In this document: piece by piece, positions 1 to 43,658 of the stretch | Layout of the letters: every line of letters begins with the position of its first letter | Position numbering within the stretch: the stretch's first letter is position 1 | Virus record (IMG/VR): IMGVR_UViG_3300005544_000021 | Direction: 5' to 3' (one strand) | Length of the DNA stretch: 48,829 nt | Source of the DNA: a virus | Taxonomy: Duplodnaviria; Heunggongvirae; Uroviricota; Caudoviricetes | Translations under genes and position numbers: made by a program | The notes under the pieces: generated by a model | Told to the model about the DNA's origin: nothing | Databases searched by the model: none | Seen by the model: only the letters and a program-made list of their open reading frames with translations

Positions 1-528
1 ACCAACATTAGCAGCGGGTTCAACCTCCCGAACTTTTCTAATTTTTCGGGGATCAATATATCTTAGTTCTTGAATACCAGCCTGAGGTTGTTTTTCATCT
101 ATAATAGCATGATAAGGAAGCCTGCCATCCACGTAAAAACGCAGGAAAATATCCTTTGCCCGAACATTCCATTTTAGAAGTTGTTGGATGGTTTCAAACT
201 CGCCTTCAATAGCTTTTTTAGTACTATCTCCAACCATATCATCTAAATCGTCCAGGACTATATCAACAATTTTTTGCCCTTCTTCGTGGACAATAGTTTC
301 GTTGGAAATATTCTTAACCGCCGAATCAATCTCATGATGCAACATCATTTGGCGGTATTTGCTTATGAGTTCGGCTTCGTTTTTAACCGATCCTTCAATA
401 TCAATATATCCCCCATAGTGACCTCCAGCGGCCACAGTAACAGCTCCATCATCTACAACGGGGGGAGTGAAAGATGGAAGGGGTTTAGCTTCCGCTTGTT
501 TACGAATTTCCCAGCCGAATATTCTCAA
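1..528 (-). CDS. gp20: Portal vertex protein (T4 gp20-like), N-terminal 176 codons, runs off the window; not in the ORF track
   Basis: Manual translation from TTG at 528: MRIFGWEIRKQ...DIEGSVKNEAELISKYRQMMLHHEIDSAV...FYVDGRLPYHAIIDEKQPQAGIQELRYIDPRKIRKVRE, matching gp20 motifs. GGAG RBS upstream; follows gp19. Confidence 0.95.
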   Translation of the reverse strand, partial: MRIFGWEIRKQAEAKPLPSFTPPVVDDGAVTVAAGGHYGGYIDIEGSVKNEAELISKYRQMMLHHEIDSAVKNISNETIVHEEGQKIVDIVLDDLDDMVGDSTKKAIEGEFETIQQLLKWNVRAKDIFLRFYVDGRLPYHAIIDEKQPQAGIQELRYIDPRKIRKVREVEPAANVG

Positions 529-959
529 TCAACTTCTCCATGACTTTGTAACATTTTATGAAAATATTCGGTTGTATTATGAGGTAGTTCATAAACATGT
601 GCTTTAAGAATACCTTTACTATGAATATGTTCAATAGCCGCACGATGATGACCATCTAAAATTAGATGATGTTTTCCAACCTTTAATAAAATTGGATTAT
701 GATGTCCTTCAAATGTTGTTTCATCTGGGTCTGCTCCAGTATTTCTTAGCCATTTTTGAGTGGCAATTAAACTTCCAGTATTTACATTAGAAAGTTTAGC
801 TGGAGTAGTATGACTGTTAATATGGTCTACAACTATACCCAATCTTTCCTCTCCAGCAGTTTTATATTCATCATGATATCCATGAAATATCTTAGAAAGT
901 CTAAATGGAGTTTCTTTTGGAAGCTTTACTTCTAATAAAAATTGCTGAAAAGACAACAA
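525..959 (-). CDS. ParB/Srx-like domain protein with capsid-targeting-like leader (MLSFQQFLLE)
   Basis: LIATQKWL...PILLKVGKHHLILDGHHRAA is the ParB/sulfiredoxin-like motif. TTG start with AAGGA RBS; stop overlaps the gp20 start. Confidence 0.75.
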   Translation of the reverse strand: MLSFQQFLLEVKLPKETPFRLSKIFHGYHDEYKTAGEERLGIVVDHINSHTTPAKLSNVNTGSLIATQKWLRNTGADPDETTFEGHHNPILLKVGKHHLILDGHHRAAIEHIHSKGILKAHVYELPHNTTEYFHKMLQSHGEVD

Positions 960-1050
960 CCAAAAATCCTTTCTAAATCATTATAAAAACATGAAATCCC
1001 AATCGTAATATTTTTGGAAAATATCAGAGGATTGGGACATATAAAATCAT

Positions 1051-1680
1051 TTAAGGCGTAGTAACGCGAGGGACTCCAGTTTCCTGATTACCACTGATAC
1101 TACCTTGCTCGGGTTCATCAGGTAGCAACACAGAATATTGATCCGAAGCACTTGATTGATTAATTGGTTGGAAGTAATCTAAAGCAAAAGTGACATTAAA
1201 TTGTTCAAGCTGACCTTGGGAACCCCAATCTAAGGGAATAGGAGTAATACTCATAGGCCATAAACCAATAAACTGATAAGCTCTTAAATCCCGACCATCT
1301 TTACCTTTTTGTAGAACTTCGGCGGTAGCTTTATATCCCGTTGGATAAAAACTTGGATTTAGACGATTTGAAACCAAGGTGTTCATAATATTAGACCAAG
1401 ATTCTAACATGGCTCTTTGCCCAAAATCTTCATCGTTCATGATAGTTACATCCCAATTATCATAAACTCGTTCGCCCGCAAATTTAGCTTGCCAACCAAA
1501 ATATGGAGCAATAACAGGTTGAACGACAAATCCGGGAAGACTTGCCGCACTTACCAGAAGTACTGATCTTTTACTTTCGGCGGAAGTAAATGGCGGAAAC
1601 AAAGATACCTCAAACTGATTAGGACGAGCCCCGCCTTGCTTGAGACCGTTTGCCCGAAAATTTTCTATATTAAAACTAAT
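1051..1680 (-). CDS. gp19: Tail tube protein (T4 gp19-like), probable ATT start
   Basis: WDVTIMNDEDF...LESWSN...FIGLWPMSITPIPLDW...EQFNVTFALDY. The frame extends upstream of the track start (1602) through SFNIENFRANGLKQGGARPNQFEV to ATT at 1680, 8 nt after AAGGAG. Confidence 0.93.
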   Translation of the reverse strand: MSFNIENFRANGLKQGGARPNQFEVSLFPPFTSAESKRSVLLVSAASLPGFVVQPVIAPYFGWQAKFAGERVYDNWDVTIMNDEDFGQRAMLESWSNIMNTLVSNRLNPSFYPTGYKATAEVLQKGKDGRDLRAYQFIGLWPMSITPIPLDWGSQGQLEQFNVTFALDYFQPINQSSASDQYSVLLPDEPEQGSISGNQETGVPRVTTP

Positions 1681-1712
1681 AGCACTTACTCCTTAAAGAT
1701 GTTGATTATTAT

Positions 1713-1720
1713 TATTTATA
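1713..1720 (-). promoter_or_regulatory. T4-type late promoter TATAAATA upstream of gp19
   Basis: Exact TATAAATA on the minus strand, about 33 nt upstream of the gp19 start. Confidence 0.75.
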
Positions 1721-1745
1721 TCCTGATAATTTACCTATAAGACCC

Positions 1746-4146: not shown

Positions 4147-4175
4147 TTGACATTTGTAAATAAATATTCTAGAAT
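4147..4175 (+). promoter_or_regulatory. Sigma70-type promoter TTGACA-N17-TAGAAT for the homing endonuclease gene
   Basis: TTGACA at 4147-4152, 17-nt spacer, TAGAAT at 4170-4175; AAAGGAG RBS and ATG 4204 downstream. Confidence 0.7.
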
Positions 4176-4203
4176 ACGATATAAGGTTTCAAAAGGAGAG
4201 AAG

Positions 4204-6432: not shown

Positions 6433-6485
6433 TTTACTTTCCTCTTAGTTTGTTAAAAAAAATCATACTAACGATTTAAAAAGCC

Positions 6486-6885: not shown

Positions 6886-7134
6886 CTACTTGAGTTTCTT
6901 AAACGGATTATCATGGTTAGGGTTTGATCTAATTTTATTCCACGCTGATGTTAATTGGTAAGTGGATTCGTTTGATCCCCCATGATCAGGGTGTATTTTC
7001 TTCAAAACTTCATGATATTCCGGCTTTATTTTTGCTAATTCTTGACGCACATTTATTTTGAAGTCCCGAAATATTTTATATGCTTTATGTAGAGGCATAT
7101 CATTTTCCAAAAGAAATTTCTTAAAGCTTACCAT
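6886..7134 (-). CDS. Minimal J-domain (DnaJ-like) protein with capsid-targeting-like leader (MVSFKKFLLE)
   Basis: YHEVLKKIHPDHGGSNESTYQLTSAWNKI (HPD motif). ATG 7134 overlaps the end of gp17. Confidence 0.75.
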   Translation of the reverse strand: MVSFKKFLLENDMPLHKAYKIFRDFKINVRQELAKIKPEYHEVLKKIHPDHGGSNESTYQLTSAWNKIRSNPNHDNPFKKLK

Positions 7135-8774
7135 TCTTCGGGAAACATCCAAGATTCTTGAGGAACTTCTATTAAATCTTCCATGTCTTCTCGTCCGTCA
7201 TTCCGAAAACCAAATGGTAGCATTTCATCCATCATTTGCTCGTCTGTCTTATCACGCAACTTAGACAAAGTATTTATGTCGTTAAGTTCCTTGAAATAAC
7301 TTTGTTCTGTCAGCCAAGCGAAATGAACCAAAGGCATTACCATATCATCATGTTTTCCCGGCTCAGCCTCATATGAATCTTTTTTTCGGGAGAAGGTGAA
7401 TAATTCTTGAATTGTGCCGTAATCGTGAATCACTAATTGATGTTGTTCTACTAAGAGTTTTAACATAGAACATCCCAGAGCCTTGACGGGTTTTGTGGTT
7501 TTGATTCCTTTTTCTGTTGCCTTGTTATACCCAAATGAAATCTGTTTGCCTAATCTTCCGGCACTTCGGGTATGCAGAATGTTTTCATATTCTAAATCAT
7601 AACTTAAAATATCTGCCACACTTGCTCCAATGCCGTTATTTTCAATCAAGACGTTTGCCTCATTATAAGACTTGGCTGTGTGTAAAATAACTTCGGCATA
7701 GTCATAAGGAGTGATCATGTTGTCGTTAAAAGAACAGACTTGAGTATATGGAAGCTTGGTGATATCTATAATATGAAATGCAGAATAGTCAAGTCCTTTT
7801 CCTTCTGAAACATCACAAACACAAATATAGACATGATCTTTTTCAGGTTTGGCAAATTGTCGCAACCCATTTTTATCAATCAATGGCAAGGTGTATTCAT
7901 CTTTTAGTTCTTCTAGACGCCATCCCGCTATTAAGGTTCCGCTTGATCCAAGCCACGCAACCGCATATTCCTGATCAAACTTCTGGGAATCAAAGTTTAG
8001 AGTCGCTAAGGTTTCTTCCCGCCATTTTGGGTTATTCTTGAAGAATGGAACTTGTTGCCATGTTACCTTGATTGGATGGAAACCATTCTTTCCTTTTTCC
8101 GCTAGAGACCATATTTCATGAAAATGGTTTAATCCTTTGGGAGTGCTAACCATGACAATCTTGGATTTTTGTCCCGAGGAAATTGTTGGGTAGACTGAGG
8201 TATAAAATTCTGCCCAATTATCAATGTGTGCGGCCTCGTCCAAAAATAGAATATCAATATTGTATCCCCGAATAGCGTCTTTAGAAGTTGCACTGGCGAT
8301 AACCCTGGAATTATTCTCCAAGGCCATAGAACCCTTATGCCATTCCTTTGTTCCTTGTTTAATCCACATCGGAAGTTCGTGATGTGCATATTGAATCTTT
8401 CCTAGAATTTCTCGGGATGTTTCCCCCTTGTTAGACAAAACTGCTACTGTCTTATCAGCATGGAATGTTACATACCAAAGAATGAAAGCACAAACAGCGG
8501 TTGATTTTCCCGCCCGTCTGGAGGTTGCGATAATTGTAAAGCGATTATCTTTCATGGACATAATCATCTCTTTTTGATAATCAAAGAGCTTGATTAAGAC
8601 TGCACCTTCATCGGAATTAACAACCTTGATATAATTTTCCGCAAAATATATTGGATCATCTTTACATTTAATATATTCGGAAATTCTATCGGGAGTCCAG
8701 GAAATTGGAATTCCGGTGCGTTTTAGGGTTTGGGAACCCCGATAAGTGTTAGTATAGGATATGTGTTCGGACAT
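7128..8774 (-). CDS. gp17: Terminase large subunit (T4 gp17-like)
   Basis: CKDDPIYFAENY, Walker A-like SRRAGKST, Walker B LFLDEAAH, VSTPKG, DVSEGKGLDYSAF, HDDMVM. Confidence 0.98.
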   Translation of the reverse strand: MSEHISYTNTYRGSQTLKRTGIPISWTPDRISEYIKCKDDPIYFAENYIKVVNSDEGAVLIKLFDYQKEMIMSMKDNRFTIIATSRRAGKSTAVCAFILWYVTFHADKTVAVLSNKGETSREILGKIQYAHHELPMWIKQGTKEWHKGSMALENNSRVIASATSKDAIRGYNIDILFLDEAAHIDNWAEFYTSVYPTISSGQKSKIVMVSTPKGLNHFHEIWSLAEKGKNGFHPIKVTWQQVPFFKNNPKWREETLATLNFDSQKFDQEYAVAWLGSSGTLIAGWRLEELKDEYTLPLIDKNGLRQFAKPEKDHVYICVCDVSEGKGLDYSAFHIIDITKLPYTQVCSFNDNMITPYDYAEVILHTAKSYNEANVLIENNGIGASVADILSYDLEYENILHTRSAGRLGKQISFGYNKATEKGIKTTKPVKALGCSMLKLLVEQHQLVIHDYGTIQELFTFSRKKDSYEAEPGKHDDMVMPLVHFAWLTEQSYFKELNDINTLSKLRDKTDEQMMDEMLPFGFRNDGREDMEDLIEVPQESWMFPEEW

Positions 8775-9172
8775 TAATCTTTTTTGATATTCTCTAACAT
8801 CTTGCCAAGTTCGGCTGTAGTTATATGAAGATGTTGATTTACTTCATTTGGTTGATCTTGTCGCTTATTAATAAATTTCGTTTTCTCATTAATCATTTTG
8901 CTTTCCACAAGCTGGCGATTTGAATCCACCAAATTTTTCATGTGCATAGTCAGAACTTCAAAAGCCCGAGGGTGCCCAGATTGTTGGGCAATTTCCATTA
9001 GTTCCGACATGGCAATATTACCTTGTTCAATTGCTAGCTTTATGTTCTTGCGGACAAATTCAAAATCATCTCCCTCAACATCCACATCTATTTCTTTTGG
9101 AATCAAAACATCCGTGGGGATATTAAGAATAGATTCTAAGTCATTCTCGGGGTTTTTATCTTCTTCATTCAT
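8774..9172 (-). CDS. gp16: Terminase small subunit (T4 gp16-like)
   Basis: DDFEFVRKNI...AQQSGHPRAFEV motif; directly upstream of gp17. Confidence 0.9.
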   Translation of the reverse strand: MNEEDKNPENDLESILNIPTDVLIPKEIDVDVEGDDFEFVRKNIKLAIEQGNIAMSELMEIAQQSGHPRAFEVLTMHMKNLVDSNRQLVESKMINEKTKFINKRQDQPNEVNQHLHITTAELGKMLENIKKD

Positions 9173-11067
9173 TTTTTCTTTACCTGTTCATGATCAACAA
9201 CATGGGCATCAATATGGGTTTCCCCTCTTAATTTAGCCGCCATAACTCTATGTAATCCATTATCTATATAATGATCATTCCCTACTCTTAAAACACTAAT
9301 CGGGGATTTATTATTAGAATCAAGATGTTGATCAAGTCCTTTTCTGTGTACGTAGTTTTGCATTGCCTTCAATTTATGAATCGGCAGCTTTTGAATTGGA
9401 GCATTGGAAATTTTATTGTTGAACTCTTTGGGGTTATATTTTGGAAATGGAGTTTGCGTTTTTACTCCAATTTCTCCGGGTTGTTTATTCTTGGTTCTTT
9501 GCAGGAGATAATCTGCCAGCTTTCGGGCTCGGAATGGATCACGCACAACTTCATTAACCACGAAACCCCATGTATGTTTGAAACCTCGGACCTTTCGGGT
9601 TGCTACTCTATGATTCCCATCAACCGTAATATGATGACCAGTTTGTTTATCTTTAACGAAAATTGGAAATCTTGGTTCATGATTTTTCCATTTCTGCATT
9701 ATTTTCTTAGCTACAACCTGAGCACTTACACTGACTTGCGGGCTATGAATTTTATCAAGAGGAATCTTTTGGACTTTCATTCCTTTATACTCGCCACCAT
9801 ACGCTCTGTTAATTTTTACTCCCATTTTATCACTATCATGGTGATAGTCTTTATCTCCTACCCCAAGGTCACTATTATAAATTTGGTCTTTCTTTTTTCC
9901 ATGTTTTTTTCGTAACTTTGATATCATTGCAACAGCAGCCCGTTTTGATAAAATAGATTCCTTTATATCTGAATCAATTACATGTCCCCGAATATGGGTA
10001 AATCCCCGAACAGCTCTTGCGGCGGCTCGGTGATTACCATTAATCATTAAATGAAATCCATTTTTCAAACGCACAAAAATTGGAAGTTTATTTCCGGGTT
10101 GCTTAGATTTACCCCATGTTCCCTCAAGCTTCTTAGAAACAACCCGACTACTAATGGAATCTTGATTAGTGACAACTTTATCAAGAGGAACATTAGCTAC
10201 GGTGTGTTTTCTTGGGGTTCCATTTTGAATCTTATCAAGTTCTTTGTCTATAGCTTGGGAAGAAACCCTTTTGTTCCATTGAGCATTTGGAAAAATTGAT
10301 TGGGTTGGCATTTGTTCCCGATGGAAAGATGCCCCTTTTAATGTTACGTTTCCTTGAGGAGTTTTTTTGTGTATACGATGAATAGAATCTACCTTATCCA
10401 GAGCTTTATATTTTGGAATAATAGCTTCTTTGATATTACTATTTCGCTGTTTAAGTCTCTTGTATATCTGAGAAACATGTTTAATATGACCATAGGCTAA
10501 TTGGGCGGCATGTGGCCCCCCCGTTACAGCAGCCCCTAAGGCCATATGTCCGGGAGACATTCCCTTGAAAGCCAGAGCCCCTAAACCCCCCATTCCCCCT
10601 ACTCCTGCCGCACTATGAACGACATGTTTAATGAAATTCTTTCGGCCCCCATGTCTGCGGATTGTATCCCGAGCATGTATCTTCAGGGCTTGTTTTAGTT
10701 CGCCATCTTCATTTAATCCATCTTTGTTTATTATATTATGTTTTTCAAATCGTTGTAAAATTGAATGTTTTTTATTGTCTTTAGTATAAGGCCAACTAGT
10801 ATAATTATAATTATTGTTTTTATGAGAAACATAACCAGTAGTATGCCATTCATCTTCTGGCCATAAAGTATCATGAGTATGATGTTCTGAATCTCCTACA
10901 ACCAAATCATTTGTTTTAGTAATAACATAACGTAATCCATATTTTGATCTTTTAGATAATCCTTTTATACTTTCAATTGTAGGATTCATATGAACTTGAG
11001 GCATAGATTCAACAAGTCGCTCGTTACGAAATTTCTCAAAACTAATAATGTTATTGCTATTATTCAT
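9169..11067 (-). CDS. 632-aa basic multidomain protein with three ParB/Srx-like domains; probable head-packaged polyprotein
   Basis: INGNHRAAA, VDGNHRVAT and DNGLHRVMA motifs; leader ISFEKFRNERLVE; [LIV]-x-E at domain borders; both ends overlap neighbouring genes (ATGA). Confidence 0.75.
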   Translation of the reverse strand: MNNSNNIISFEKFRNERLVESMPQVHMNPTIESIKGLSKRSKYGLRYVITKTNDLVVGDSEHHTHDTLWPEDEWHTTGYVSHKNNNYNYTSWPYTKDNKKHSILQRFEKHNIINKDGLNEDGELKQALKIHARDTIRRHGGRKNFIKHVVHSAAGVGGMGGLGALAFKGMSPGHMALGAAVTGGPHAAQLAYGHIKHVSQIYKRLKQRNSNIKEAIIPKYKALDKVDSIHRIHKKTPQGNVTLKGASFHREQMPTQSIFPNAQWNKRVSSQAIDKELDKIQNGTPRKHTVANVPLDKVVTNQDSISSRVVSKKLEGTWGKSKQPGNKLPIFVRLKNGFHLMINGNHRAAARAVRGFTHIRGHVIDSDIKESILSKRAAVAMISKLRKKHGKKKDQIYNSDLGVGDKDYHHDSDKMGVKINRAYGGEYKGMKVQKIPLDKIHSPQVSVSAQVVAKKIMQKWKNHEPRFPIFVKDKQTGHHITVDGNHRVATRKVRGFKHTWGFVVNEVVRDPFRARKLADYLLQRTKNKQPGEIGVKTQTPFPKYNPKEFNNKISNAPIQKLPIHKLKAMQNYVHRKGLDQHLDSNNKSPISVLRVGNDHYIDNGLHRVMAAKLRGETHIDAHVVDHEQVKKK

Positions 11068-11909
11068 CGGTCAAACGGATATGTATTTGGAGTGAAGGGG
11101 GCAACATCCAGGACAATAATCTCCCCATAATTATCATCAAAATTAATCAAGCTGGCATCAATAGTTTCGGAGGCATTACTTGTTGGGTCTCCATTAGCGG
11201 TTAAGCCTGGATAAGAAGCTATGCGTTCTCCAATTTCAAGTTGTTCTATTATTGACTGACTATTGCCCACGTGTATGAACTTTTCTACAAATTTAATAAC
11301 TGGTTTATTTAGAATTGGACCATATAAATGAGCCTTCATTGAAAATGATAAGGTATAAATCAAAACTTGTCTTTGCGTAAAAGCCCCATCATATTGATCC
11401 TCAATTCCAATATTATTCAACACCACGGGAATATCTTTGGTGATGCTCATTTCTGGAATAATATGGGCACTAACGGTGAAGTCGGGGGTGAAGTAAGGTA
11501 ATATTTGCTCCACAATTTTAGTGGCATCCTCGGCATTCTTAACATAGATATAAAGATTGAATAAGATGTTATAGGGAGCATCAGTATAAACCATCTTGAA
11601 ATGATTTGGATCATCCCCCCGCCTAACAATCTTTTCAATCCGATTTAGTTTTCGTTCCGAATCATAAACAATATTTGTAATTTCAAAGCCCATTCGGGGC
11701 AAAGTTATTGCAGCTTGTTTTGTGATTTCTGGATCACCCTTAACTCGGGCCAGAAGCTTATCTTTGGCCGCATACGAAAGGGGGACCTTCATTTTCTCAA
11801 TTTCAGTTCCATTAGCATCTTCTCGGGCAATGTTGATATTATTGAACATTAAGCCAAAAACGGTTATATATTTTCTAAATAGCTTGTGGTAAAAATCTTC
11901 TCCGAGTAT
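11064..11909 (-). CDS. gp15: Tail sheath stabilizer / tail terminator (T4 gp15-like), probable ATA start
   Basis: KVPLSYAAKDK...ITLPRMGFEI...YDSERKLN...EQILPYFTPDF. The frame extends upstream of ATG 11849 through LGEDFYHKLFRKYITVFG to ATA at 11909. Confidence 0.92.
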   Translation of the reverse strand: MLGEDFYHKLFRKYITVFGLMFNNINIAREDANGTEIEKMKVPLSYAAKDKLLARVKGDPEITKQAAITLPRMGFEITNIVYDSERKLNRIEKIVRRGDDPNHFKMVYTDAPYNILFNLYIYVKNAEDATKIVEQILPYFTPDFTVSAHIIPEMSITKDIPVVLNNIGIEDQYDGAFTQRQVLIYTLSFSMKAHLYGPILNKPVIKFVEKFIHVGNSQSIIEQLEIGERIASYPGLTANGDPTSNASETIDASLINFDDNYGEIIVLDVAPFTPNTYPFDR

Positions 11910-11910
11910 G

Positions 11911-12621
11911 TTATGTTCCCTTCTTTACTTTCTCTATGGGTAAATGTTCAGGTTCAAACATAATATAACTTTTTTTAGAACGAACCCCTTGAGTTTCATT
12001 GGGAGATGTATTACGATACACAAGCCCATGTTTTCCCTTGCTTTTCATATGTTCAATATATTTGTTTACAACCTTGGCTCGTAAATCACTATGAATGCCA
12101 ATTAATCCCGCATCAAAATTATGCATATATGATTTAAATGAATTTCTTGAAGCTGCCGCAGTTCCAAACTTTTTATCGCTTGGGGCTTTACCAGCCATTA
12201 AATGAGAATGAACTTCCTCGGCAGTTTTATCATCAACATGTCTTGTATGTTTAACCCAAGTTTTGAATAGTTCTTTATTCTCGGGTTTAGAAAATACGGT
12301 TCCCGTAATATGAGAACCAATGGCGTGTTGATCCCATCCATTAGATGTTTGATCAAGTTTATGTAGTTTAGAACGACTTGGAGCTTTAGTGCGATAAACC
12401 CCTGGTTCATAATCTTTGCTATGAGTTTTTCCAGGTAGAGGTTCCCGTGGGTCTCCAAACTTATCTGCCATGGATTTATCCGAGGCAAAATGTGAACCCA
12501 AGGCTCTATCAATAGAAAAATCATGTCTATCAACCTTTAGTTTACCCCCTTCTATTTTTCGCAAGGTACCATGATACATCCAATTCGGCATTTCAATTAA
12601 GAATTGTCTAAAGCTTATCAT
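11911..12621 (-). CDS. ADP-ribosyltransferase-fold protein (ART-PolyVal-like) with capsid-targeting-like leader (MISFRQFLIE)
   Basis: MYHGT...GSHFASDKSMADKF...HGLVYRN...E...SYIMFEP pattern. ATG 12621 overlaps the gp14 stop. Confidence 0.65.
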   Translation of the reverse strand: MISFRQFLIEMPNWMYHGTLRKIEGGKLKVDRHDFSIDRALGSHFASDKSMADKFGDPREPLPGKTHSKDYEPGVYRTKAPSRSKLHKLDQTSNGWDQHAIGSHITGTVFSKPENKELFKTWVKHTRHVDDKTAEEVHSHLMAGKAPSDKKFGTAAASRNSFKSYMHNFDAGLIGIHSDLRAKVVNKYIEHMKSKGKHGLVYRNTSPNETQGVRSKKSYIMFEPEHLPIEKVKKGT

Positions 12622-13361
12622 AGATTCTCGGGCCAATTCTCGGCGAATGGGTCTTCCTCAGAGAAATCTAGAACATCACTTTCTTGTTTTAATTCTGTAT
12701 TGTCTTCTAGCGGATCAATTACGTCTAGGTTAAATCCTGGGCCAACAATGATATTACCTTGTTCATCAACTAAAGCTTTTCCATTTTGATCTTTTAAAGC
12801 GTAGTCATAAATGTTGGTACTTAGATTTTTCTGGATAGAATCTATCTCGGGAATTCCTGTGTTGAATTGCTCGTTAGAATATTCAAACAATTCACAGAAC
12901 ACATTATAGACTGGTAAGATTCCCAAGGGATAATGTATGGGCTTATTTTCCACATACTTTATTTGAAATACTTTGTTGTTCAGAGGATAGTAAATCAGGT
13001 CACTTTCATTTGGTCGCAGTAAGGAATATGGGCGTCCTATTTCATCATCAAAAACTCGTTTGGCAATCGTAAAGGTTATTTGATCCCGAATTTCAATACC
13101 AAACTTGCTCATGAAAGAACCTTCCCCCTGAAAGCCTTCCACATTAGTTACATACATTGCAATTTGAATTGCCTGATTGTAAGTTGAAATGTCGTCCTGT
13201 AGATATACTTTATCCAAATTATTCAGGGTTCGGGGAAGATAATAGAAGTCCAAACCATAGATAGAAATTGATTCAATAATCAAGTCCTCAAGCAAACTTT
13301 GCTCAGGAGAATAATCATAGTTCTCAAAGAAGACGTTTGTTATTGAACCAGATGACGGCAA
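12618..13361 (-). CDS. gp14: Neck protein (T4 gp14-like)
   Basis: EQSLLEDLIIESISIYGLDFYYLPRT...GSFMSKFGIEIRDQITF...RPNESDLIYYP...CELFEYSNE; TTG start. Confidence 0.95.
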   Translation of the reverse strand: MPSSGSITNVFFENYDYSPEQSLLEDLIIESISIYGLDFYYLPRTLNNLDKVYLQDDISTYNQAIQIAMYVTNVEGFQGEGSFMSKFGIEIRDQITFTIAKRVFDDEIGRPYSLLRPNESDLIYYPLNNKVFQIKYVENKPIHYPLGILPVYNVFCELFEYSNEQFNTGIPEIDSIQKNLSTNIYDYALKDQNGKALVDEQGNIIVGPGFNLDVIDPLEDNTELKQESDVLDFSEEDPFAENWPENL

Positions 13362-13364
13362 TTC

Positions 13365-14015
13365 TTATCCCTCACTTACTAAAAATTCATCAAGATCGGC
13401 ATGATTATGCAAGAGATAGTGTTGATCATAAGTAAAACTTTGTTTGGGAACCACCTTATAGTCTTGGTCTAAAATTACATAACCCTTATCGGACATGTAG
13501 TTATAAATGGAATCCCGATTTATTGTCTGATGGGTTTCCAGGGCAATAATGATTTTGTTGTTATCCAGAATTTTACTGGCTCCCCGGAGAACAAATTCTT
13601 CCGCTCCTTCCACATCAATTTTTATAAATCCAATATTAGTTGTGTCCCCAAAATAATTATCCAGGGATACACTCTGAACCATTTTAAATCTATTTGGATC
13701 ATGATCATAAACAGTAGCGTTAGCTATTGCCGGGGATATTGTGTGTCCTCCAGGATTGCTTCGGCAAGTCCAAAGCTTGATTAACCCATTTTCTGTTCCT
13801 ACAGCCCCATTAACAAATATTACGTTTTCATCTTTCACATTTTCCATTAGGGTGCGAAAGTTTTCTAGATTTGGTTCAAAGGCGTAAGTTTTCATACATT
13901 GTTTGGCGATCAAAGGAGTATAGCTGCCATGATTAGCCCCAATATCCAACCCAATTTTATCTAGGCAAGATTTGTTTAGACGAGCAATAATATCTCCAAT
14001 TAATAGTTCACTCAT
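13365..14015 (-). CDS. FkbM-family SAM-dependent methyltransferase
   Basis: LDIGANHGSY, YAFEPNLENF, LDNY...FIKIDVEGAEEFVLRGA. Confidence 0.9.
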   Translation of the reverse strand: MSELLIGDIIARLNKSCLDKIGLDIGANHGSYTPLIAKQCMKTYAFEPNLENFRTLMENVKDENVIFVNGAVGTENGLIKLWTCRSNPGGHTISPAIANATVYDHDPNRFKMVQSVSLDNYFGDTTNIGFIKIDVEGAEEFVLRGASKILDNNKIIIALETHQTINRDSIYNYMSDKGYVILDQDYKVVPKQSFTYDQHYLLHNHADLDEFLVSEG

Positions 14016-14384
14016 TTACCAACTCCCTGTTGCTCCAGCCCCAAATTTTCTTTTGGGAACATCAACCCCCTGCTTAATCTCAACATTCTTACTCATTCGT
14101 CCAGATTTCCAACCCGGACCAACTTTAAGTTTTACCTTTTTTCTCATTGTAGCTATACCATTATCCAAGTCCCGAAACTTATCCCTAATTTGATCTGTAT
14201 GATATTTCATATAAGATGGAGGAGGTTTAGCTTTCCACCGAGCAATTTCATCATCATACTTATGTTGTTGATGATGTGAATATGCCCCCGCCGCAACTGC
14301 AAGACCCCCAACAGCCCCCGCAACGGCGGCTGCTAGTTTTTTGTTTTCCTCAATTGGAATTATGTCTCGTAGTTTCTTGCTCAT
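14016..14384 (-). CDS. Basic hypothetical protein with Gly/Ala hydrophobic segment; MSKKLRDII...IEE leader
   Basis: AAAVAGAVGGLAVAAGAY segment; tight TAATG coupling on both sides. Confidence 0.65.
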   Translation of the reverse strand: MSKKLRDIIPIEENKKLAAAVAGAVGGLAVAAGAYSHHQQHKYDDEIARWKAKPPPSYMKYHTDQIRDKFRDLDNGIATMRKKVKLKVGPGWKSGRMSKNVEIKQGVDVPKRKFGAGATGSW

Positions 14385-14767
14385 TAAGGGGTATTAGATG
14401 TTACCGTTGTATTTGCTGCTGCTTGCTGCTGCTGAAGAATAGCCACGGCTGCTTTAATAGCTCCAGCTTCTGCATTATGAATTGCGGTAATACCTTCCTT
14501 AATCAAGATTTGGAGAAAAATTGTTTCGGCTACTGCAACATTAGTTCCGGGGGGAGCAGTAACTGCGGCTGTTACGGCAGCAAATGCCGCATCTTCCAGA
14601 ATCTTCAAACCAACTTGTAAATCATTTTTCCCAAGTTGAAGGGCAACAGCTTTCACCTGAAGCATTAAGGGACCAAAAAAAGTTATCAGGGCTTTATCTT
14701 CTTTACTAAACCAAGCCAGAAATGCATTTTTTTGATGATCAAACCAAGTTGTTATATTTTCAAACAT
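14384..14767 (-). CDS. Hypothetical Ala-rich protein, 127 aa
   Basis: ATG with AAGGA upstream; co-oriented in the late operon. Confidence 0.65.
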   Translation of the reverse strand: MFENITTWFDHQKNAFLAWFSKEDKALITFFGPLMLQVKAVALQLGKNDLQVGLKILEDAAFAAVTAAVTAPPGTNVAVAETIFLQILIKEGITAIHNAEAGAIKAAVAILQQQQAAANTTVTSNTP

Positions 14768-14799
14768 TTTTCTTTTTCCTTTATCATTTGATTAATTTG

Positions 14800-15684: not shown

Positions 15685-15685
15685 C

Positions 15686-20157: not shown

Positions 20158-20184
20158 AGATTCCCTGTCCTCTTTTGGTTATGT

Positions 20185-28857: not shown

Positions 28858-29078
28858 ACCTTAAGAAATCCAACCTCTAATAAGATCGCCTGAATCATTT
28901 TCTTTTGATCCGCAAGTTCTTTTTCCAGGTCTTGAACTTTTTTCGCCAATTTATTTCTTTCTAAAATAGCTTCTTTTTGTTTCTTGTATGCAGTTAGTTC
29001 ACTCTGGTTATTATTTATGATAACCCCGGTATCTTTGTCCTTTTTATATCCGGGGATATTGGTTTCCTGGAGGTTCAT
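28854..29078 (-). CDS. Small coiled-coil protein of the type found after VrlC-like genes in T4-like phages
   Basis: GYKKDKDTGVIINNNQSELTAYKKQK followed by a heptad-like helix. Confidence 0.7.
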   Translation of the reverse strand: MNLQETNIPGYKKDKDTGVIINNNQSELTAYKKQKEAILERNKLAKKVQDLEKELADQKKMIQAILLEVGFLKV

Positions 29079-29134
29079 CCATATACCCTTTTCACGTTTA
29101 TGAATTGGGTGAAACTAAGCATATGCTTTTTCAT
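29075..29134 (-). CDS. 19-aa micro-ORF consisting mostly of the capsid-targeting-like leader (MKKHMLSFTQFINVKRVYG)
   Basis: Manual translation; ATGA overlaps at both ends exactly fill the gap. Confidence 0.4.
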   Translation of the reverse strand: MKKHMLSFTQFINVKRVYG

Positions 29135-29268
29135 GTGGCATTACAATGAGGACAAGAGGGATATTCCCCCGGAGATTTAACTTCATATGGTTCTTTACAT
29201 CCACAAAAAGGACATTTTGGTTTAACTTTTTTCACTCGTTTAACTATTTGACGTAATGTCTTTTTCAT
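29131..29268 (-). CDS. 45-aa zinc-ribbon protein (CPFC...CPHC) with MKKTLRQIV leader; not in track
   Basis: MKKTLRQIVKRVKKVKPKCPFCGCKEPYEVKSPGEYPSCPHCNAT; TAATG coupling to the upstream stop. Confidence 0.65.
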   Translation of the reverse strand: MKKTLRQIVKRVKKVKPKCPFCGCKEPYEVKSPGEYPSCPHCNAT

Positions 29269-41600: not shown

Positions 41601-42137
41601 TTAAGCCCCATGTTTCTTTATCCATTCATTTGAGAAGTATTTACGCTTGTATTCCTCGCCTTCCGTATGTCCAACCTTGATAGCTAGATCAGGAAACTGT
41701 TTCTGTTTGGTAAGCGGCACTGTTTCTCTCTTGAAATGAAAATGGTGCATCTGATCATGAGTGGGGTCAACAAAATGCTTGATTTCTGGTATCTCTACCC
41801 AGGAATGTGAGCCTTCTTGTCTTCGTTTCCGTCCAGGAAAAGTAGTTAATTGATGAGTTGATGTTACTGGAGACGTATAATAACCATTTAAAACCTTAGC
41901 GGAGGGATAATGTGGTTTCAGGGCCTTAACTACCGCCCGAGAAACAGCCTCACAGCGTCCAAAACAGGCGAGACGATGACTTGGAGCTTTTGAAGATGCA
42001 TCCGTAAATCCCTTGTCCTTGGCATGTTTGATATAATAATCAAGCCGGGCCTTTGATGCCAATTCTCTAATCTTTGGCTCATGCTCGGACTTGAATCTTT
42101 CTGTTATTAAAGTGATGAACTCCCCAAAGCTTAACAT
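41601..42137 (-). CDS. Papain/transglutaminase-like Cys-His-Asp protein with capsid-targeting-like leader (MLSFGEFITLITE)
   Basis: GRCEAVSRAV ... HSWVEI ... VDPTHDQ spacing of a Cys-His-Asp triad. Confidence 0.65.
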   Translation of the reverse strand: MLSFGEFITLITERFKSEHEPKIRELASKARLDYYIKHAKDKGFTDASSKAPSHRLACFGRCEAVSRAVVKALKPHYPSAKVLNGYYTSPVTSTHQLTTFPGRKRRQEGSHSWVEIPEIKHFVDPTHDQMHHFHFKRETVPLTKQKQFPDLAIKVGHTEGEEYKRKYFSNEWIKKHGA

Positions 42138-42180
42138 TTCTCTTATATCATTCTTGAGTTTGCATCAATAATATCATATC

Positions 42181-42273
42181 TCACTTAATATTCATCCTAT
42201 TCTGTTTACTCCCCAAACCAAGAAGCCAGATTAATGCTACCACAAATATTGCTAGGGAGAGCATAATTTCCAT
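42181..42273 (-). CDS. 30-aa membrane peptide (not in track)
   Basis: MEIMLSLAIFVVALIWLLGLGSKQNRMNIK; ATG 1 nt after the upstream stop. Confidence 0.45.
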   Translation of the reverse strand: MEIMLSLAIFVVALIWLLGLGSKQNRMNIK

Positions 42274-42274
42274 G

Positions 42275-42787
42275 TCAGTCAAAGAGTTCTTCTAAAATCA
42301 TAAAAAACTGATGAAATAATTTATGTAGTTCCCGATCTAAATCACAAAATGGTTTTGGTTTTGGTCTTGGGGGATTAACCACTGGAGGAGGAACAGGAAC
42401 TGGAACTGGATCAACCACAGGTGGGGGAACAGGGGCTGGTGGCTCAGGATTTGGATTAACAATAACTGGAGGAACAGGGGGCGTTGGATCAACTACCGGA
42501 GGAGTTGGGGCTGGTGTTACAGGGGCTGGATCATCAACCTTTAATTTTTGATCTGAGGGGGTAATCCAGGGAGTTTCGGGTTTGATAATCTCAATTTGAG
42601 GAGGCGGTAATTTCTTAGGCGTATTATGATAATATGCTCCCGCTCCAACAGCCATCATTAACATAACAGCTACCGCAACATGTGTTTTTTTTACTGGACC
42701 AGGGCTCGGCACAACTTCCATATTATTTAATGGGGCTGTATTGTTTTCTGGCATGGGATTGTTTGGGGTGTTAGCTTCTTCTGCCAT
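42275..42787 (-). CDS. Proline-rich single-pass membrane protein
   Basis: VAVAVMLMMAVGAGAYY helix followed by PVVDPTPPVPPV-type repeats. Confidence 0.7.
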   Translation of the reverse strand: MAEEANTPNNPMPENNTAPLNNMEVVPSPGPVKKTHVAVAVMLMMAVGAGAYYHNTPKKLPPPQIEIIKPETPWITPSDQKLKVDDPAPVTPAPTPPVVDPTPPVPPVIVNPNPEPPAPVPPPVVDPVPVPVPPPVVNPPRPKPKPFCDLDRELHKLFHQFFMILEELFD

Positions 42788-42791
42788 TTGA

Positions 42792-43658
42792 TTATCCTTT
42801 TCTTCTACTCGTTAAATGTTTGATTCCATCATGAACTAAATGTCCAACCCAATTTACTATTCTGGAGGACGTAATAATACGAGGTTGCTTAGCTATATGT
42901 ATCTTGGCTCCCGGATGTAAAATGAATTCATATTCATCTGGGTGTTCCGACACATGACTTACATAAGCCCCATGTGAACCCTTGGGAACATGAATTGTCA
43001 CATAATGACGGTTTTCTTCTTCATCTTCCTTGGAAAAATCTCGGGCAATATCTCGCCTTAATGACGTACTGGTAAAGGCGGGAAGATGAATATGAAAATG
43101 TCCGTGTTTATTTTCTCCGGGAGCCTGATACATTTGCTTAATTGCCGAACGAGTCATTCCCGTGTGAACGGCAAAATCGTGGGGTGTTTCATGCTGAACC
43201 AGGGCTTCTTTTATTCTTCCAGGAATCTTTGAATCATCATAACGATTAGAGTGCCCCATGATGTGTTTATTTATTGGGACGCTTGAACCCCCAGTATACT
43301 GTTTCAGGGCTTCCTTATGATCATCATTAAATGTATAATGGTTAGTTAATTTATTATGAAGTCTATTAACATAGTCAGGTTTAGTATTCTTATCAAGTTT
43401 AAAATCATCAACATGAACAATTTGGGCTTTTATTAGTTTGGGTTTATTTGGGTTAACATGCATATATTTCTTTTGGGCCAGAATATTCTTTAACGCATTT
43501 TTATGTTTCTGGGGATCATCCAGAGAAGCATGACCATATACCCCCCCAAATTGATCCACAAATCTAGAAACCAATCCTTCCGAAACATCTCCATTTTTTC
43601 CGATAAAACCTAGAAACATTTTCTGATATTTTGGGACGATATGTCTTAGTTTCTTCAT
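42792..43658 (-). CDS. Alt/VIP2-like NAD-dependent ADP-ribosyltransferase
   Basis: ALKQYTGGS..INKH, FTSTSL, TIHVPKGSHGAYV, DEYEFILHPG (STS and ExE motifs); MKKLRHIV leader. Confidence 0.85.
   Translation of the reverse strand: MKKLRHIVPKYQKMFLGFIGKNGDVSEGLVSRFVDQFGGVYGHASLDDPQKHKNALKNILAQKKYMHVNPNKPKLIKAQIVHVDDFKLDKNTKPDYVNRLHNKLTNHYTFNDDHKEALKQYTGGSSVPINKHIMGHSNRYDDSKIPGRIKEALVQHETPHDFAVHTGMTRSAIKQMYQAPGENKHGHFHIHLPAFTSTSLRRDIARDFSKEDEEENRHYVTIHVPKGSHGAYVSHVSEHPDEYEFILHPGAKIHIAKQPRIITSSRIVNWVGHLVHDGIKHLTSRRKG

What the first reader, a model, noticed from the sequence alone, without database searches (positions are those of the whole stretch)
525..43658. Capsid-targeting-like leader on many unrelated enzymes placed between structural genes: a putative injected-effector set
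Seen: near-identical leaders on otherwise unrelated proteins. They are MLSFQQFLLE (959, ParB-like), MVSFKKFLLE (7134, J-domain), ISFEKFRNERLVE (11067, polyprotein), MISFRQFLIE (12621, ART fold), MLSFTNFLLE (internal ATG 15429), MLSFTQFI (micro-ORF 29134) and MLSFGEFITLITE (42137, Cys-His-Asp enzyme). Each gene sits at a junction between core virion genes, mostly with overlapping start/stop codons, and the proteins are Lys/His-rich. Known: T4 internal proteins IPII/IPIII carry the 10-aa capsid-targeting sequence MKTYQEFIAE, removed by protease gp21 after (I/L)-x-E. Inference: a portable leader loads a modular set of enzymes into the head for injection, and the set is more varied than the T4 IP/Alt proteins.
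Basis: partly seen in the sequence, partly recalled or inferred. Interest (0 to 1): 0.88.

Follow-up and report, generated by a model that had tools for sequence, protein, structure and literature searches.

The report
T4-type capsid-targeting leaders on phage enzymes
An uncultured T4-like phage puts a close relative of phage T4's 10-residue "load me into the head" tag on about a dozen unrelated, strongly basic proteins, several of them predicted enzymes, so its packaged and probably injected protein cargo can largely be read from sequence; the mechanism is known from T4, the cargo set is new.

Summary
All seven leaders are at the stated places. M[LIVM]SF..F[LIV] occurs 5 times in the contig against 0.04 expected.

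The window is the late structural module of a distant T4-superfamily myophage; its large terminase is 52% identical to Sinorhizobium phage phiM12. The leader (M-x-S-F-x-x-F-L/I-x-E) matches the T4 IPII/IPIII capsid targeting sequence (CTS), MKTYQEFIAE, at the four positions that mutagenesis showed to matter: 4 and 7 for targeting, 8 and 10 for cleavage.

The contig encodes a gp21-type (S77) prohead protease. Its capsid protein has DLLE|A where T4 gp23 is cut.

Relatives found through the cargo alone keep the F..F[LI].E leader, or an internal hydrophobic-x-Glu junction, just before the domain. T4-type (MKTF..), MLSF-type and a second type (MKKLRDIL) replace one another on the same cargo family. 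That second type marks about five more genes here, including a clear Alt-like ADP-ribosyltransferase.

Cargo calls:
- ADP-ribosyltransferase fold and Cys-His-Asp transglutaminase-like fold: supported.
- ParB/Srx-like: weak to moderate.
- J-domain: weak.

Packaging, cleavage and injection are inferred, not shown. This scan has already noted T4-CTS-like leaders on other DNA. Verdict: a real, well-supported new variant of a known system.

The parts
525..959 (-). Leader protein A (144 aa, TTG start, (M)LSFQQFLLE). His-rich, with one ParB/Srx-like domain containing a DGHHR motif. Lies between tail tube gp19 and portal gp20.
   Evidence: It aligns to each of the three repeats of protein C at E about 0.002-0.003. 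Weak Pfam VapB-like hit.
6886..7134 (-). Leader protein B (82 aa, MVSFKKFLLE). Probable minimal J-domain with an HPD motif. Its start overlaps the stop codon of the large terminase gene.
   Evidence: Pfam DnaJ E 0.0027, below the family cut-off. pI 9.8.
9169..11067 (-). Leader protein C (632 aa; leader IISFEKFRNERLVE at residues 7-20). Contains an unknown domain, a Gly-zipper hydrophobic segment and three ParB/Srx-like repeats, with IKE/VNE-type junctions at the domain borders. Lies between gp15 and the small terminase, with overlaps at both ends.
   Evidence: PHROG ParB-like E 3.7e-8 and 2.2e-5. Precomputed ParB_N, faint. pI 10.2.
11911..12621 (-). Leader protein D (236 aa, MISFRQFLIE). ADP-ribosyltransferase fold, ART-PolyVal/AcrIF11-like. 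Lies between gp14 and gp15.
   Evidence: Atlas PF18760 ART-PolyVal, score 0.94. AF2 model pLDDT 80.6. Foldseek and VIA lists are almost wholly ADP-ribosyltransferases. Homologues keep the leader or junction.
14800..15429 (-). Leader protein E (209 aa from the internal ATG, MLSFTNFLLE; the frame stays open upstream to 15696). Unknown fold, Lys-rich, with a Gly-rich tail ending in SGSW.
   Evidence: The only homologue, P0014, starts directly MLSFKAFINQLLE|ALEPLPGKNRGW. No family found.
29075..29134 (-). Micro-ORF MKKHMLSFTQFINVKRVYG*, joined by ATGA overlaps to the zinc-ribbon ORF upstream and the 74-aa Lys-rich ORF (28854-29078) downstream. Possibly a leader split from its cargo by a 1-nt frame change.
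   Evidence: The fused reading is inference only.
41601..42137 (-). Leader protein G (178 aa, MLSFGEFITLITE). Transglutaminase/papain-like Cys-His-Asp fold. Lies between gp6 and gp7.
   Evidence: C62, H111, D124 and D128 are invariant in 6 homologues. AF2 pLDDT 72. VIA: TglA Z 7.7, LapG 6.2, SseI 6.0, transglutaminases about 5. Atlas gives Transglut_core rows.
42792..43658 (-). Second-form leader protein (288 aa, MKKLRHIVPKYQ...). C3/Vip2-type ADP-ribosyltransferase, the functional analogue of T4 Alt.
   Evidence: Pfam ADPrib_exo_Tox E 4.7e-16, above cut-off. PDB sequence hits to Certhrax, CdtA and C3larvin. Homologous, E 2e-8, to an MISFKQFLLE-led protein in locus L153, which also holds gp20-gp23 homologues.
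14016..14384 (-). Second-form leader protein (122 aa, MSKKLRDIIPIEE...), with a Gly-zipper hydrophobic segment. Basic.
   Evidence: No family found.
29131..29268 (-). 45-aa zinc-ribbon protein starting MKKTLRQIVKRVKK. Possible second-form leader; the weakest member of the set.
7128..8774 (-). Large terminase gp17. Context gene that identifies the T4 superfamily.
   Evidence: Pfam Terminase_6N E 3.8e-21. 52% identity to phiM12/phiN3.
11064..16654 (-). Neck genes gp15 (11064-11849), gp14 (12618-13361) and gp13 (15686-16654). They are interrupted by the leader genes, a methyltransferase (13365-14015) and one non-leader ORF (14384-14767).
   Evidence: The same genes are contiguous in phiM12 and in the closest IMG/VR relatives.

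Best explanation
The leaders are homologues of the phage T4 capsid targeting sequence (CTS).

Inferred mechanism, by homology with T4:
1. The genes are co-transcribed late with the virion genes they sit between.
2. The N-terminal amphipathic peptide (M-x-x-F4-x-x-F7-[L/I]8-x-E10, or longer forms ending in L/I-x-E) docks the nascent protein onto the scaffolding core, so it is enclosed in the prohead.
3. The gp21-family protease encoded on the same contig cuts after the Glu. This frees basic mature proteins that stay with the packaged DNA.
4. The proteins most likely leave with the DNA at infection.

The cargo is a set of separate enzyme-like proteins:
- two unrelated ADP-ribosyltransferases;
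- ParB/Srx-like proteins, one of them a three-repeat polyprotein probably cut at internal I/V-x-E junctions;
- a transglutaminase-like Cys-His-Asp enzyme;
- a J-domain-like protein;
- several proteins of unknown fold.

A second N-terminal form (MKKLRDIL-like) is a variant of the same signal.

Shown here: motif, context, protease gene, capsid-protein site, comparative conservation and folds. Inferred: late timing, packaging, cleavage, injection and targets.
For: 1. Position-by-position match to T4. ipII and ipIII read MKTYQEFIAE, and ipI reads MKTFKEFTSTTTPVSTITE, taken from NC_000866. T4 mutagenesis places targeting at residues 4 and 7 and processing at 8 and 10 (PMC9026906). These are the only four positions conserved here. 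The longer leaders of C and G end in LVE and ITE, like IPI.

2. The contig encodes a Peptidase_S77 protease, E 1.4e-32. Its capsid protein has RDLLE|AA aligned to T4 gp23 SFLTE|AE.

3. The same DNA pattern returns exactly ipII, ipIII and gene 61.1 in T4, and none in reversed controls.

4. Homologues found by cargo only:
- D family: MRRFKEYLIE, MDRFSSFIAE, MKTFREFILE and others, directly before WMYHG. 21 of the 26 closest relatives have a hydrophobic-x-Glu within 7 residues of the domain start, against 3 of 65 distant, polyvalent-type relatives, P 5e-13.
- G family: MKTFREFITE, MKRLRDIVEG and MKKKPLRGILTE, before RFKSEHE.
- ART 42792-43658 has an MISFKQFLLE-led homologue in a locus that also holds gp20-gp23 homologues.

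5. In IMG/VR the leader heads at least 20 unrelated families. 13-14 of 18 larger contigs carrying it at ORF starts have a T4-type Gp23, against 0 of 5 chance-match contigs. One contig has six consecutive genes mixing MKTF, MLSF and MLTF leaders. Another has three basic leader genes just downstream of gp23, after a GIY-YIG-like ORF.

6. Leader proteins are basic, pI 9.6-10.3, like T4 internal proteins. The virion core proteins are acidic.

7. The cargo types match domains already linked to capsid-delivered proteins: T4 Alt, and ParB/Srx in P1 DdrB (PMC5512222).
Against: There is no experimental evidence for this phage: no virion proteome, no N-termini, no injection assay. It is uncultured, and the contig is only about 32% of the genome.

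Motif presence alone is not proof. T4 gene 61.1, in the early region beside primase gene 61, also starts MKTFKEFIKE and, to my knowledge, is not known to be packaged.

Late timing is inferred from gene packing only. The T4 late-promoter word TATAAATA is not enriched: 4 found against 6.5 expected, although all four are on the coding strand.

Several second-form leaders lack a Glu at position 10, so they may be targeted but not cut, or not targeted at all.

A J-domain and a membrane-like Gly-zipper are not obvious DNA-bound cargo.

The E leader is internal to an open frame, and the micro-ORF leader has no cargo in frame.
Confidence: 0.72

Rival explanations
1. The leader does target proteins to the prohead core, but most of them are assembly or scaffold accessories. 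They would be degraded or expelled during maturation, like T4 gp22, gp67 and gp68, and would not be injected effectors.
For: Several leader genes lie in the gp20-gp21 interval where T4 keeps its core genes 67 and 68. The J-domain-like protein would fit an assembly chaperone role. An acidic gp67-like protein is also present.
Against: The mature proteins are strongly basic and enzyme-like: ARTs, ParB/Srx, transglutaminase-like. That profile fits T4 Alt and the internal proteins, which stay in the head and are injected (PMC5512222; PMC3012670). There is one cleavage site at the domain border rather than many internal sites in D and G.
Confidence: 0.15
2. The shared N-terminus is an amphipathic helix with another role, such as membrane association, chaperone or partner docking, a degron, or a handle for a modifying enzyme (like the radical-SAM tag seen elsewhere in this scan). 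On this view it is unrelated to capsid loading.
For: A short M-x-x-F-x-x-F-L helix is generic. T4 gene 61.1 carries it in an early-gene region. In other phages some leader genes lie beside replication genes.
Against: The motif coincides with the four experimentally defined CTS positions. The Glu-terminated junction recurs exactly at domain borders, even inside multidomain homologues, which points to cleavage. ORF-start occurrences go with T4-type capsid genes. No radical-SAM gene is on the contig, and that tag has a different sequence.
Confidence: 0.1
3. The similarity is chance, or a remnant of gene duplication (paralogous N-termini) or of DNA-level cassette shuffling. It would then have no function of its own.
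For: The leaders are short, and T4-type genomes do shuffle cassettes (PMC2839356, listed).
Against: The motif occurs 5 times against 0.04 expected. The downstream domains are unrelated folds. Codon usage differs between copies, and the upstream DNA is not conserved. The leader persists across homologues at 40-50% identity.
Confidence: 0.02

Closest known systems
Phage T4 internal proteins IPI, IPII and IPIII with their capsid targeting sequence (CTS), removed by prohead protease gp21 (Mullaney & Black 1996, as cited in PMC9026906 and PMC3012670)
   Same: An N-terminal tag of 10-19 residues. An aromatic residue at positions 4 and 7, L/I at 8 and Glu at 10, or a later I/L-x-E. Unrelated basic cargo behind one shared tag. 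A gp21-family protease and a matching capsid-protein site in the same genome.
   Different: Positions 2-3 are L/I/V-S instead of K-T. A second form (MKKLRDIL) coexists. The genes are wedged between core neck, tail and baseplate genes rather than sitting in separate IP loci. Much of the cargo looks like enzymes rather than small inhibitors. The phage is only distantly related to T4 (capsid protein 39% identical). Nothing has been shown experimentally.
Phage T4 Alt, a head-packaged, gp21-processed, injected ADP-ribosyltransferase (PMC5512222; PMC9026906)
   Same: Window gene 42792-43658 is an ADPrib_exo_Tox-family (C3/Vip2-like) ART (T4 Alt's own ART class is not tested here). It sits in a T4-like phage, carries an N-terminal propeptide-like leader and is basic. 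D is a second ART of another class.
   Different: I did not test direct sequence homology to Alt. The protein is much smaller (288 aa). The leader is of the CTS kind; I did not read Alt's own termini here. The targets are unknown.
Polyvalent proteins of phages and conjugative elements (Iyer, Burroughs, Anand, de Souza, Aravind 2017, PMC5512222)
   Same: The same domain vocabulary. Distant relatives of D are internal domains of proteins of 1000-5500 aa. ParB/Srx domains and peptidases are proposed to be delivered with the DNA.
   Different: Here the domains are separate small proteins, or a modest polyprotein. Each is addressed by a CTS and bordered by prohead-protease-type sites, rather than being fused into one giant polypeptide.
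Earlier notes of this scan on T4-CTS-like leaders in other genomes (e1-4335524, e1-1603694, e1-1689889, e1-1678419)
   Same: The same kind of tag on many unrelated proteins of T4-related or giant phages.
   Different: They concern other DNA and partly other consensus forms. I did not re-check them.

Membership tests
T4-type capsid targeting sequence (CTS) / internal-protein system | Short N-terminal propeptide (10-19 aa) shared by otherwise unrelated proteins | tested here: met
   Seven first-form leaders sit on unrelated folds. The count is 5 against 0.04 expected.
T4-type capsid targeting sequence (CTS) / internal-protein system | Aromatic or hydrophobic residues at positions 4 and 7, the targeting determinants in IPIII | tested here: met
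   F4 and F7 are present in all seven leaders. The determinants are taken from PMC9026906. T4 has Y/F4 and F7.
T4-type capsid targeting sequence (CTS) / internal-protein system | Processing determinants: L/I at position 8 and Glu at position 10, or a later L/I-x-E as in IPI | tested here: met
   L/I8-x-E10 in A, B, D and E. LVE in C and ITE in G. Not met by the micro-ORF or by some second-form leaders.
T4-type capsid targeting sequence (CTS) / internal-protein system | A gp21-family prohead protease in the same genome, with the same site used in the major capsid protein | tested here: met
   Peptidase_S77 E 1.4e-32. DLLE|A aligns with T4 gp23 FLTE|A. That T4 gp23 is cut after Glu65 comes from my own knowledge.
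T4-type capsid targeting sequence (CTS) / internal-protein system | Late expression together with the head genes | tested here: inconclusive
   Same strand, and overlapping or abutting virion genes. The late-promoter word is not enriched.
T4-type capsid targeting sequence (CTS) / internal-protein system | Physical presence in heads, cleavage after Glu, and injection with the DNA | not testable with these tools
   The phage is uncultured. D has no homologue in cultured phage records.
ADP-ribosyltransferase superfamily (protein D, 11911-12621) | ART fold with a conserved catalytic-type triad | tested here: met
   Nearly all of the top VIA rows are ARTs: diphtheria toxin Z 6.8, exotoxin A 6.4, RES/ParT toxins, PARPs, AcrIF11. 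Foldseek probabilities are 1.00 and 0.97 for the top two. Atlas gives ART-PolyVal at 0.94. H44, Y202 and E209 are invariant, but I did not check by superposition that they form an H-Y-E triad.
ADPrib_exo_Tox (C3/Vip2-like ART; protein 42792-43658) | Pfam family score above the curated cut-off | tested here: met
   59.2 bits against a cut-off of 23.4, E 4.7e-16. PDB sequence hits.
Transglutaminase/papain-like Cys-His-Asp enzymes (protein G) | The fold, plus invariant Cys, His and Asp | tested here: met
   C62, H111 and D124/D128 are invariant. The VIA top rows are all of this superfamily, Z 5-7.7. Foldseek against PDB alone was not significant, so support is moderate.
ParB/Srx superfamily (proteins A and C) | Significant match to a ParB/Srx model, and a conserved Arg motif | tested here: inconclusive
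   PHROG ParB-like E 3.7e-8 and 2.2e-5 for C. Pfam gave only a sub-threshold VapB-like hit and a faint precomputed ParB_N. A D/N-G-x-HR motif occurs in all four copies. No PDB sequence hit. Not folded.
J-domain (protein B) | DnaJ family score above cut-off, with an HPD motif | tested here: inconclusive
   18.2 bits against a cut-off of 27.8. The HPD motif is present.

The most novel reading that the evidence does not exclude
Across the T4 superfamily, well beyond the T-even phages, one simple grammar specifies the protein set loaded into the head and injected. The grammar is an N-terminal M-x-x-F-x-x-F-[L/I]-x-E tag or its MKKLRDIL variant, plus hydrophobic-x-Glu junctions that the prohead protease cuts. 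In this phage that set would be a pre-made counter-defence and takeover kit: an AcrIF11/ART-PolyVal-like ART, an Alt-like ART, ParB/Srx nucleotide enzymes, a transglutaminase-like enzyme and a J-domain. It would be delivered as separate pieces and as a protease-cut polyprotein. If so, the 'injectome' of uncultured T4-like phages could be predicted from sequence alone.
Probability: 0.35. Interest if true: 0.8.

Novelty: new variant of a known kind. Interest (0 to 1): 0.6.

Why it matters
T4's internal proteins are the textbook case of proteins injected with phage DNA; IPI* blocks a restriction enzyme and Alt reprograms RNA polymerase. Outside the T-even phages the injected set is almost unknown.

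If this tag is a reliable address label, the head-packaged proteins of thousands of uncultured T4-like phages could be listed from sequence. That would give a direct route to new first-minute anti-defence and host-takeover enzymes. Here these include an ART related to the anti-CRISPR AcrIF11 family.

The result also suggests that the domains fused into giant 'polyvalent proteins' in other phages are delivered here as separately tagged units.

The tag variants could widen the T4 protein-packaging tool that is already used for delivery work.

Tried and rejected
- Megablast of 21 kb of the window against cultured phages: no match.
- tblastn of D against cultured phages: no match. No cultured proxy with a virion proteome could therefore be named.
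- phiM12 and the closest IMG/VR relatives have gp13-gp17 contiguous with no inserts. The inserts are lineage-specific, not an ancestral layout. One relative (L001) has an MKKFKDFIKK-led gene between gp15 and gp16.
- Foldseek of the G model against PDB: nothing significant. The fold call rests on VIA, the Atlas and the invariant residues.
- PDB sequence search with C: nothing.
- Pfam, PHROGs and the Atlas for E, 14016-14384 and the two upstream second-form proteins: no family.
- T4 late-promoter word TATAAATA: not enriched.
- Radical-SAM tag hypothesis from other scan notes: different motif, and no radical-SAM gene on the contig.
- The top structural match of D to a cyanophage A4 pre-ejectosome chain (Z 7.7, rmsd 6.2): the paper does not describe an ART domain there. 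I treat it as a lead only.
- The 181.8-kb contig holding the whole genome could not be fetched, so I could not count leaders among the early genes of this phage.
- No complex prediction was run, because the leader is shorter than that tool's 30-residue minimum.

Full report
WHAT THE WINDOW IS

Almost all long ORFs lie on the minus strand. Family searches identify T4-type late genes in T4 order:
- baseplate wedge gp6 (43655-45457), gp7 (39063-41573) and gp8 (37022-39043);
- fibre-like proteins;
- gp13 (15686-16654), gp14 (12618-13361) and gp15 (11064-11849);
- small terminase (8774-9172) and large terminase gp17 (7128-8774);
- sheath gp18 (1746-4049) and tube gp19 (1051-1602);
- the start of portal gp20 (1-528).

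The window is part of a 57.5-kb viral contig, estimated at about 32% of a genome. Upstream of the window the contig continues with the rest of the portal gene, several small genes, a gp21-type prohead protease (Pfam Peptidase_S77, E 1.4e-32), a scaffold protein and a gp23-type major capsid protein.

The nearest cultured relatives by large terminase are Sinorhizobium phages phiM12 and phiN3, at 52% identity. IMG/VR offers nothing closer than 56%. There is no nucleotide-level match to cultured phages. This is an uncultured, distant member of the T4 superfamily.

THE OBSERVATION

| Protein | Window place | Leader |
|---|---|---|
| A | 959 (TTG start behind an AAGGA site) | (M)LSFQQFLLE |
| B | 7134 | MVSFKKFLLE |
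| C | ORF start 11067 | IISFEKFRNERLVE from residue 7 |
| D | 12621 | MISFRQFLIE |
| E | 15429 (in-frame internal ATG with its own AAGGA) | MLSFTNFLLE |
| micro-ORF | 29134 | MKKHMLSFTQFINVKRVYG* |
| G | 42137 | MLSFGEFITLITE |

The strict pattern M[LIVM]SF..F[LIV] occurs 5 times in the six-frame translation of the contig. Shuffles give a mean of 0.04 and a maximum of 1 in 300, Poisson P about 1.5e-9. One copy uses TCT for Ser and the others use AGC/AGT, and the upstream DNA is not alike. What is conserved is therefore the peptide, not a DNA cassette.

The genes sit at tube|portal, after gp17, gp15|gp16, gp14|gp15, gp13|gp14 and gp6|gp7. Start/stop overlaps hold for B, C, D and the micro-ORF. 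In phiM12 and in the closest IMG/VR relatives, gp13 to gp17 are contiguous with nothing between them. The inserts are therefore acquisitions of this lineage.

Ten of 11 leader proteins have pI 9.6-10.3 and 2-11% His. Nearly all the virion core proteins have pI 4-6 (Fisher P 1e-5).

IS IT A T4-TYPE CAPSID TARGETING SEQUENCE?

I read the T4 genes from NC_000866. ipII and ipIII start MKTYQEFIAE, and ipI starts MKTFKEFTSTTTPVSTITE. A review of the Black laboratory's work states that in the IPIII CTS targeting depends mainly on residues 4 and 7, and processing on residues 8 and 10 (PMC9026906). Those are exactly the four positions invariant or near-invariant in the window's leaders: F4, F7, L/I8 and E10. 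The longer leaders of C (…RLVE) and G (…LITE) parallel IPI (…ITE).

In an alignment of capsid proteins, the window's RDLLE|AA falls on T4 gp23 SFLTE|AE. phiM12 has LLQE|AA and another T4-like contig has LLTE|T at the same place. That T4 gp23 is cut after Glu65 is from my own knowledge. The leader's last four residues therefore look like this phage's own capsid maturation site.

As a positive control, the DNA pattern for M-x-x-[F/Y]-x-x-F-[L/I/F]-x-E finds three places in T4. Two are ipII and ipIII. The third is gene 61.1, a 54-aa ORF beside primase gene 61. The reversed control finds none.

COMPARATIVE TESTS THAT DO NOT DEPEND ON THE LEADER

Protein D. Word-based and full-HMMER searches with D returned 233 relatives.
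- In the close subfamily the conserved domain begins W-M-Y-H-G. It is preceded either by an N-terminal leader (MRRFKEYLIE, MDRFSSFIAE, MKTFREFILE, MKSFRQYISE, MIPFSSFLNE, MITFKQFFIE and others) or, in two-domain proteins, by an internal junction such as …KLNE|A, …AIFE|S, …IIPE|S or …VLLE|A.
- 21 of the 26 closest relatives have hydrophobic-x-Glu within 7 residues of the domain start, against 3 of 65 distant relatives (P 5e-13).
- The distant relatives are mostly internal domains of proteins of 1000-5500 aa.

Protein G. Its homologues carry MKTFREFITE, MKTFKQFLEE, MRNFKDFLTE, MKRLRDIVEG or MKKKPLRGILTE before the conserved RFKSEHE.

Protein E. Its one homologue starts directly MLSFKAFINQLLE|ALEPLPGKNRGW. 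This supports the internal ATG, or cleavage there.

Together these results show three things: positions 2-3 are free; the Glu marks a domain border; and the T4 form (MKTF), the window form (MLSF) and a second form (MK[KR]LRDI[LV]) replace one another on one cargo family.

THE SECOND FORM

The second form explains more genes here:
- in the window: 14016-14384 (MSKKLRDIIPIEE), 42792-43658 (MKKLRHIVPKYQ) and, weakly, 29131-29268 (MKKTLRQIVKRVKK);
- upstream of the window: two basic proteins between portal and protease (MKKLRDILKRKK and MIKRFRDILNE).

Gene 42792-43658 is a clear ADPrib_exo_Tox ADP-ribosyltransferase, E 4.7e-16 and above the Pfam cut-off, with PDB sequence hits to Certhrax, CdtA and C3larvin. 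It has a homologue (E 2e-8) that carries an MISFKQFLLE leader in an IMG/VR locus (L153) that also holds gp20-gp23 homologues.

DISTRIBUTION

A back-translated pattern scan of IMG/VR gave 113 matches. About 70 sit at the starts of real ORFs, and these belong to at least 20 unrelated families. Most of the families are of unknown function.
- All 5 near-complete genomes carrying the leader have a T4-type Gp23.
- 8-9 of 13 larger fragments carrying it have one too.
- 0 of 5 contigs with chance, non-ORF matches have one.
- In six genomes the looser pattern hits 16 times, against 1 in the reversed control.
- One genome has three basic leader genes just downstream of gp23, after a GIY-YIG-like ORF.
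- One short contig has six consecutive genes starting MKTFRSFITE, MLSFKKFLFE, MLTFKQFIKE, MLTFKQFRST…, MKTFKQILFE and MLTFKQFLYE.
- phiM12 has MKSFKQLVE on the gene between portal and protease.

The tag is thus a feature of the wider T4 superfamily, and the window's form is part of a continuum with T4's.

CARGO

D (ART fold). The AF2 model has pLDDT 80.6. The Atlas places D with PF18760 ART-PolyVal and AcrIF11-like clusters at 0.94. Foldseek's best hits are a cyanophage A4 pre-ejectosome chain and the anti-CRISPR entry 6kyf, followed by exotoxin A and diphtheria toxin. VIA lists ADP-ribosyltransferases in almost every one of the top 47 rows, Z 4-7.7. H44, Y202 and E209 are invariant, but I did not verify their spatial roles.

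G (Cys-His-Asp). C62, H111 and D124/D128 are invariant. The model has pLDDT 72. VIA's top rows are TglA, LapG, SseI, transglutaminases, arylamine N-acetyltransferases and SpvD. 'Cys-His-Asp enzyme' is supported at moderate strength; Foldseek alone was not significant.

A and C (ParB/Srx-like). C has three repeats with an N/D-G-x-HR motif and PHROG ParB-like hits. A aligns to each repeat. Pfam support is sub-threshold. I rate this weak to moderate. By analogy with the D-family junctions, it may be cut into pieces; that is inference.

B (J-domain-like). There is a sub-threshold DnaJ hit plus an HPD motif. I rate this weak.

E and the others have no recognisable family.

The vocabulary of ART, ParB/Srx and peptidase-like domains is that of the 'polyvalent proteins' proposed to travel with phage or plasmid DNA. 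T4 Alt and P1 DdrB are the experimental anchors (PMC5512222).

MECHANISM AND CAVEATS

The best explanation is the T4 one: late synthesis, docking of the leader on the scaffolding core, enclosure in the prohead, cleavage after Glu by the S77 protease, retention of the basic mature proteins with the DNA, and exit at infection. Only the sequence-level parts are shown.

Caveats:
- T4 gene 61.1 shows that the motif can occur on a gene of unknown fate in an early region.
- Late timing here rests on gene packing alone. The T4 late-promoter word is not enriched, although all four copies are on the coding strand.
- Some second-form leaders lack Glu10.
- The micro-ORF leader is out of frame with the next ORF. 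A 1-nt shift in GTGAAAAGGG would give a 20-residue propeptide ending NLQE|T, but I could not check reads.
- The rest of the genome, on a 181.8-kb contig, was not retrievable. I therefore could not test in this phage whether early genes lack the motif.

COMPARISON WITH WHAT IS KNOWN, AND NOVELTY

The T4 literature already holds the central ideas. [quoted passage not shown] Among the 21 papers in the held library that use the term, none by title or abstract is about phages distant from the T-evens or about such enzyme cargo; I did not read them all. This scan has itself noted T4-CTS-like leaders on other DNA.

The finding is therefore a real and well-supported new variant of a known system, not a new kind. 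What is new:
- the consensus, and its interchangeable second form;
- the Glu-junction rule inside multidomain relatives;
- the placement of the genes between core virion genes;
- a cargo of discrete predicted enzymes, including two ARTs.

Noticed in passing
window 42792-43658 (-): A clear C3/Vip2-type ADP-ribosyltransferase (Pfam ADPrib_exo_Tox, E 4.7e-16) lies between baseplate genes gp6 and gp7. It carries the second leader form.
   Followed up: yes
window 28854-29268 (-): Three ORFs are joined by ATGA overlaps: a 45-aa zinc ribbon, the 19-aa leader micro-ORF and a 74-aa Lys-rich ORF. A 1-nt frame change in GTGAAAAGGG would fuse the leader to the 74-aa ORF, with an NLQE junction. This could be an assembly error, a decayed gene or a frameshift.
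   Followed up: partly
window 15430-15696 (-): About 85 codons stay open in frame upstream of the E leader. The only homologue lacks this extension. It could be a fused small gene or an N-terminal extra domain that is cut off at LLE.
   Followed up: partly
T4 NC_000866 18966-19130 (locus L201 1467-1631, -): T4 gene 61.1 (54 aa, hypothetical, beside primase gene 61) starts MKTFKEFIKE, a perfect CTS-like N-terminus. To my knowledge it is not listed among the internal proteins.
   Followed up: no
L200 201-4175 (+): A 5.6-kb contig has six consecutive genes that each start with a CTS-like leader, mixing the MKTF, MLSF and MLTF forms. It looks like a hyperplastic internal-protein locus.
   Followed up: partly
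window 4147-5046 (+): A GIY-YIG/NUMOD3 (SegE-like) homing-endonuclease gene lies on the opposite strand between the terminase and sheath genes, with two small plus-strand ORFs after it.
   Followed up: no
window 6115-6830 (-): Two small proteins with signal-peptide-like starts. One is BA14K-like (PF07886) and has a His/Gly/Trp-rich repeat (HGHGGHWGHGHWGG).
   Followed up: no
window 13365-14015 (-): A Methyltransf_21 / phrog_8156 methyltransferase gene lies between gp13 and gp14. It has no leader and is acidic.
   Followed up: no
contig upstream of the window (L196 6935-7690, -): A papain-family C1 peptidase (Pfam E 1.7e-8) lies between portal and protease and has no CTS-like start. An earlier follow-up of this scan already covered it.
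   Followed up: partly
L196 6284-6655 (-); L198 (G004 35207-35566); L003 16972-17217: A small Ala/Thr/Asn-rich protein (…VAGNNATSNIATT…) is present between the portal and protease genes in the window's contig and in G004; L003 has an 81-aa ORF of similar composition at that position. Function unknown.
   Followed up: no
window 17869-24174 (-): Three consecutive fibre-like genes. The last two start MFI(T/S)(P/S)GSR, and one has a Gly_rich_2 domain. They look like paralogous receptor-binding proteins.
   Followed up: no
window 14016-14384 and 9169-11067 (-): Two leader proteins contain Gly-zipper hydrophobic stretches (AAAVAGAVGGLAVAAGA; AAGVGGMGGLGALA). Some packaged proteins may therefore insert into membranes at ejection.
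   Followed up: no
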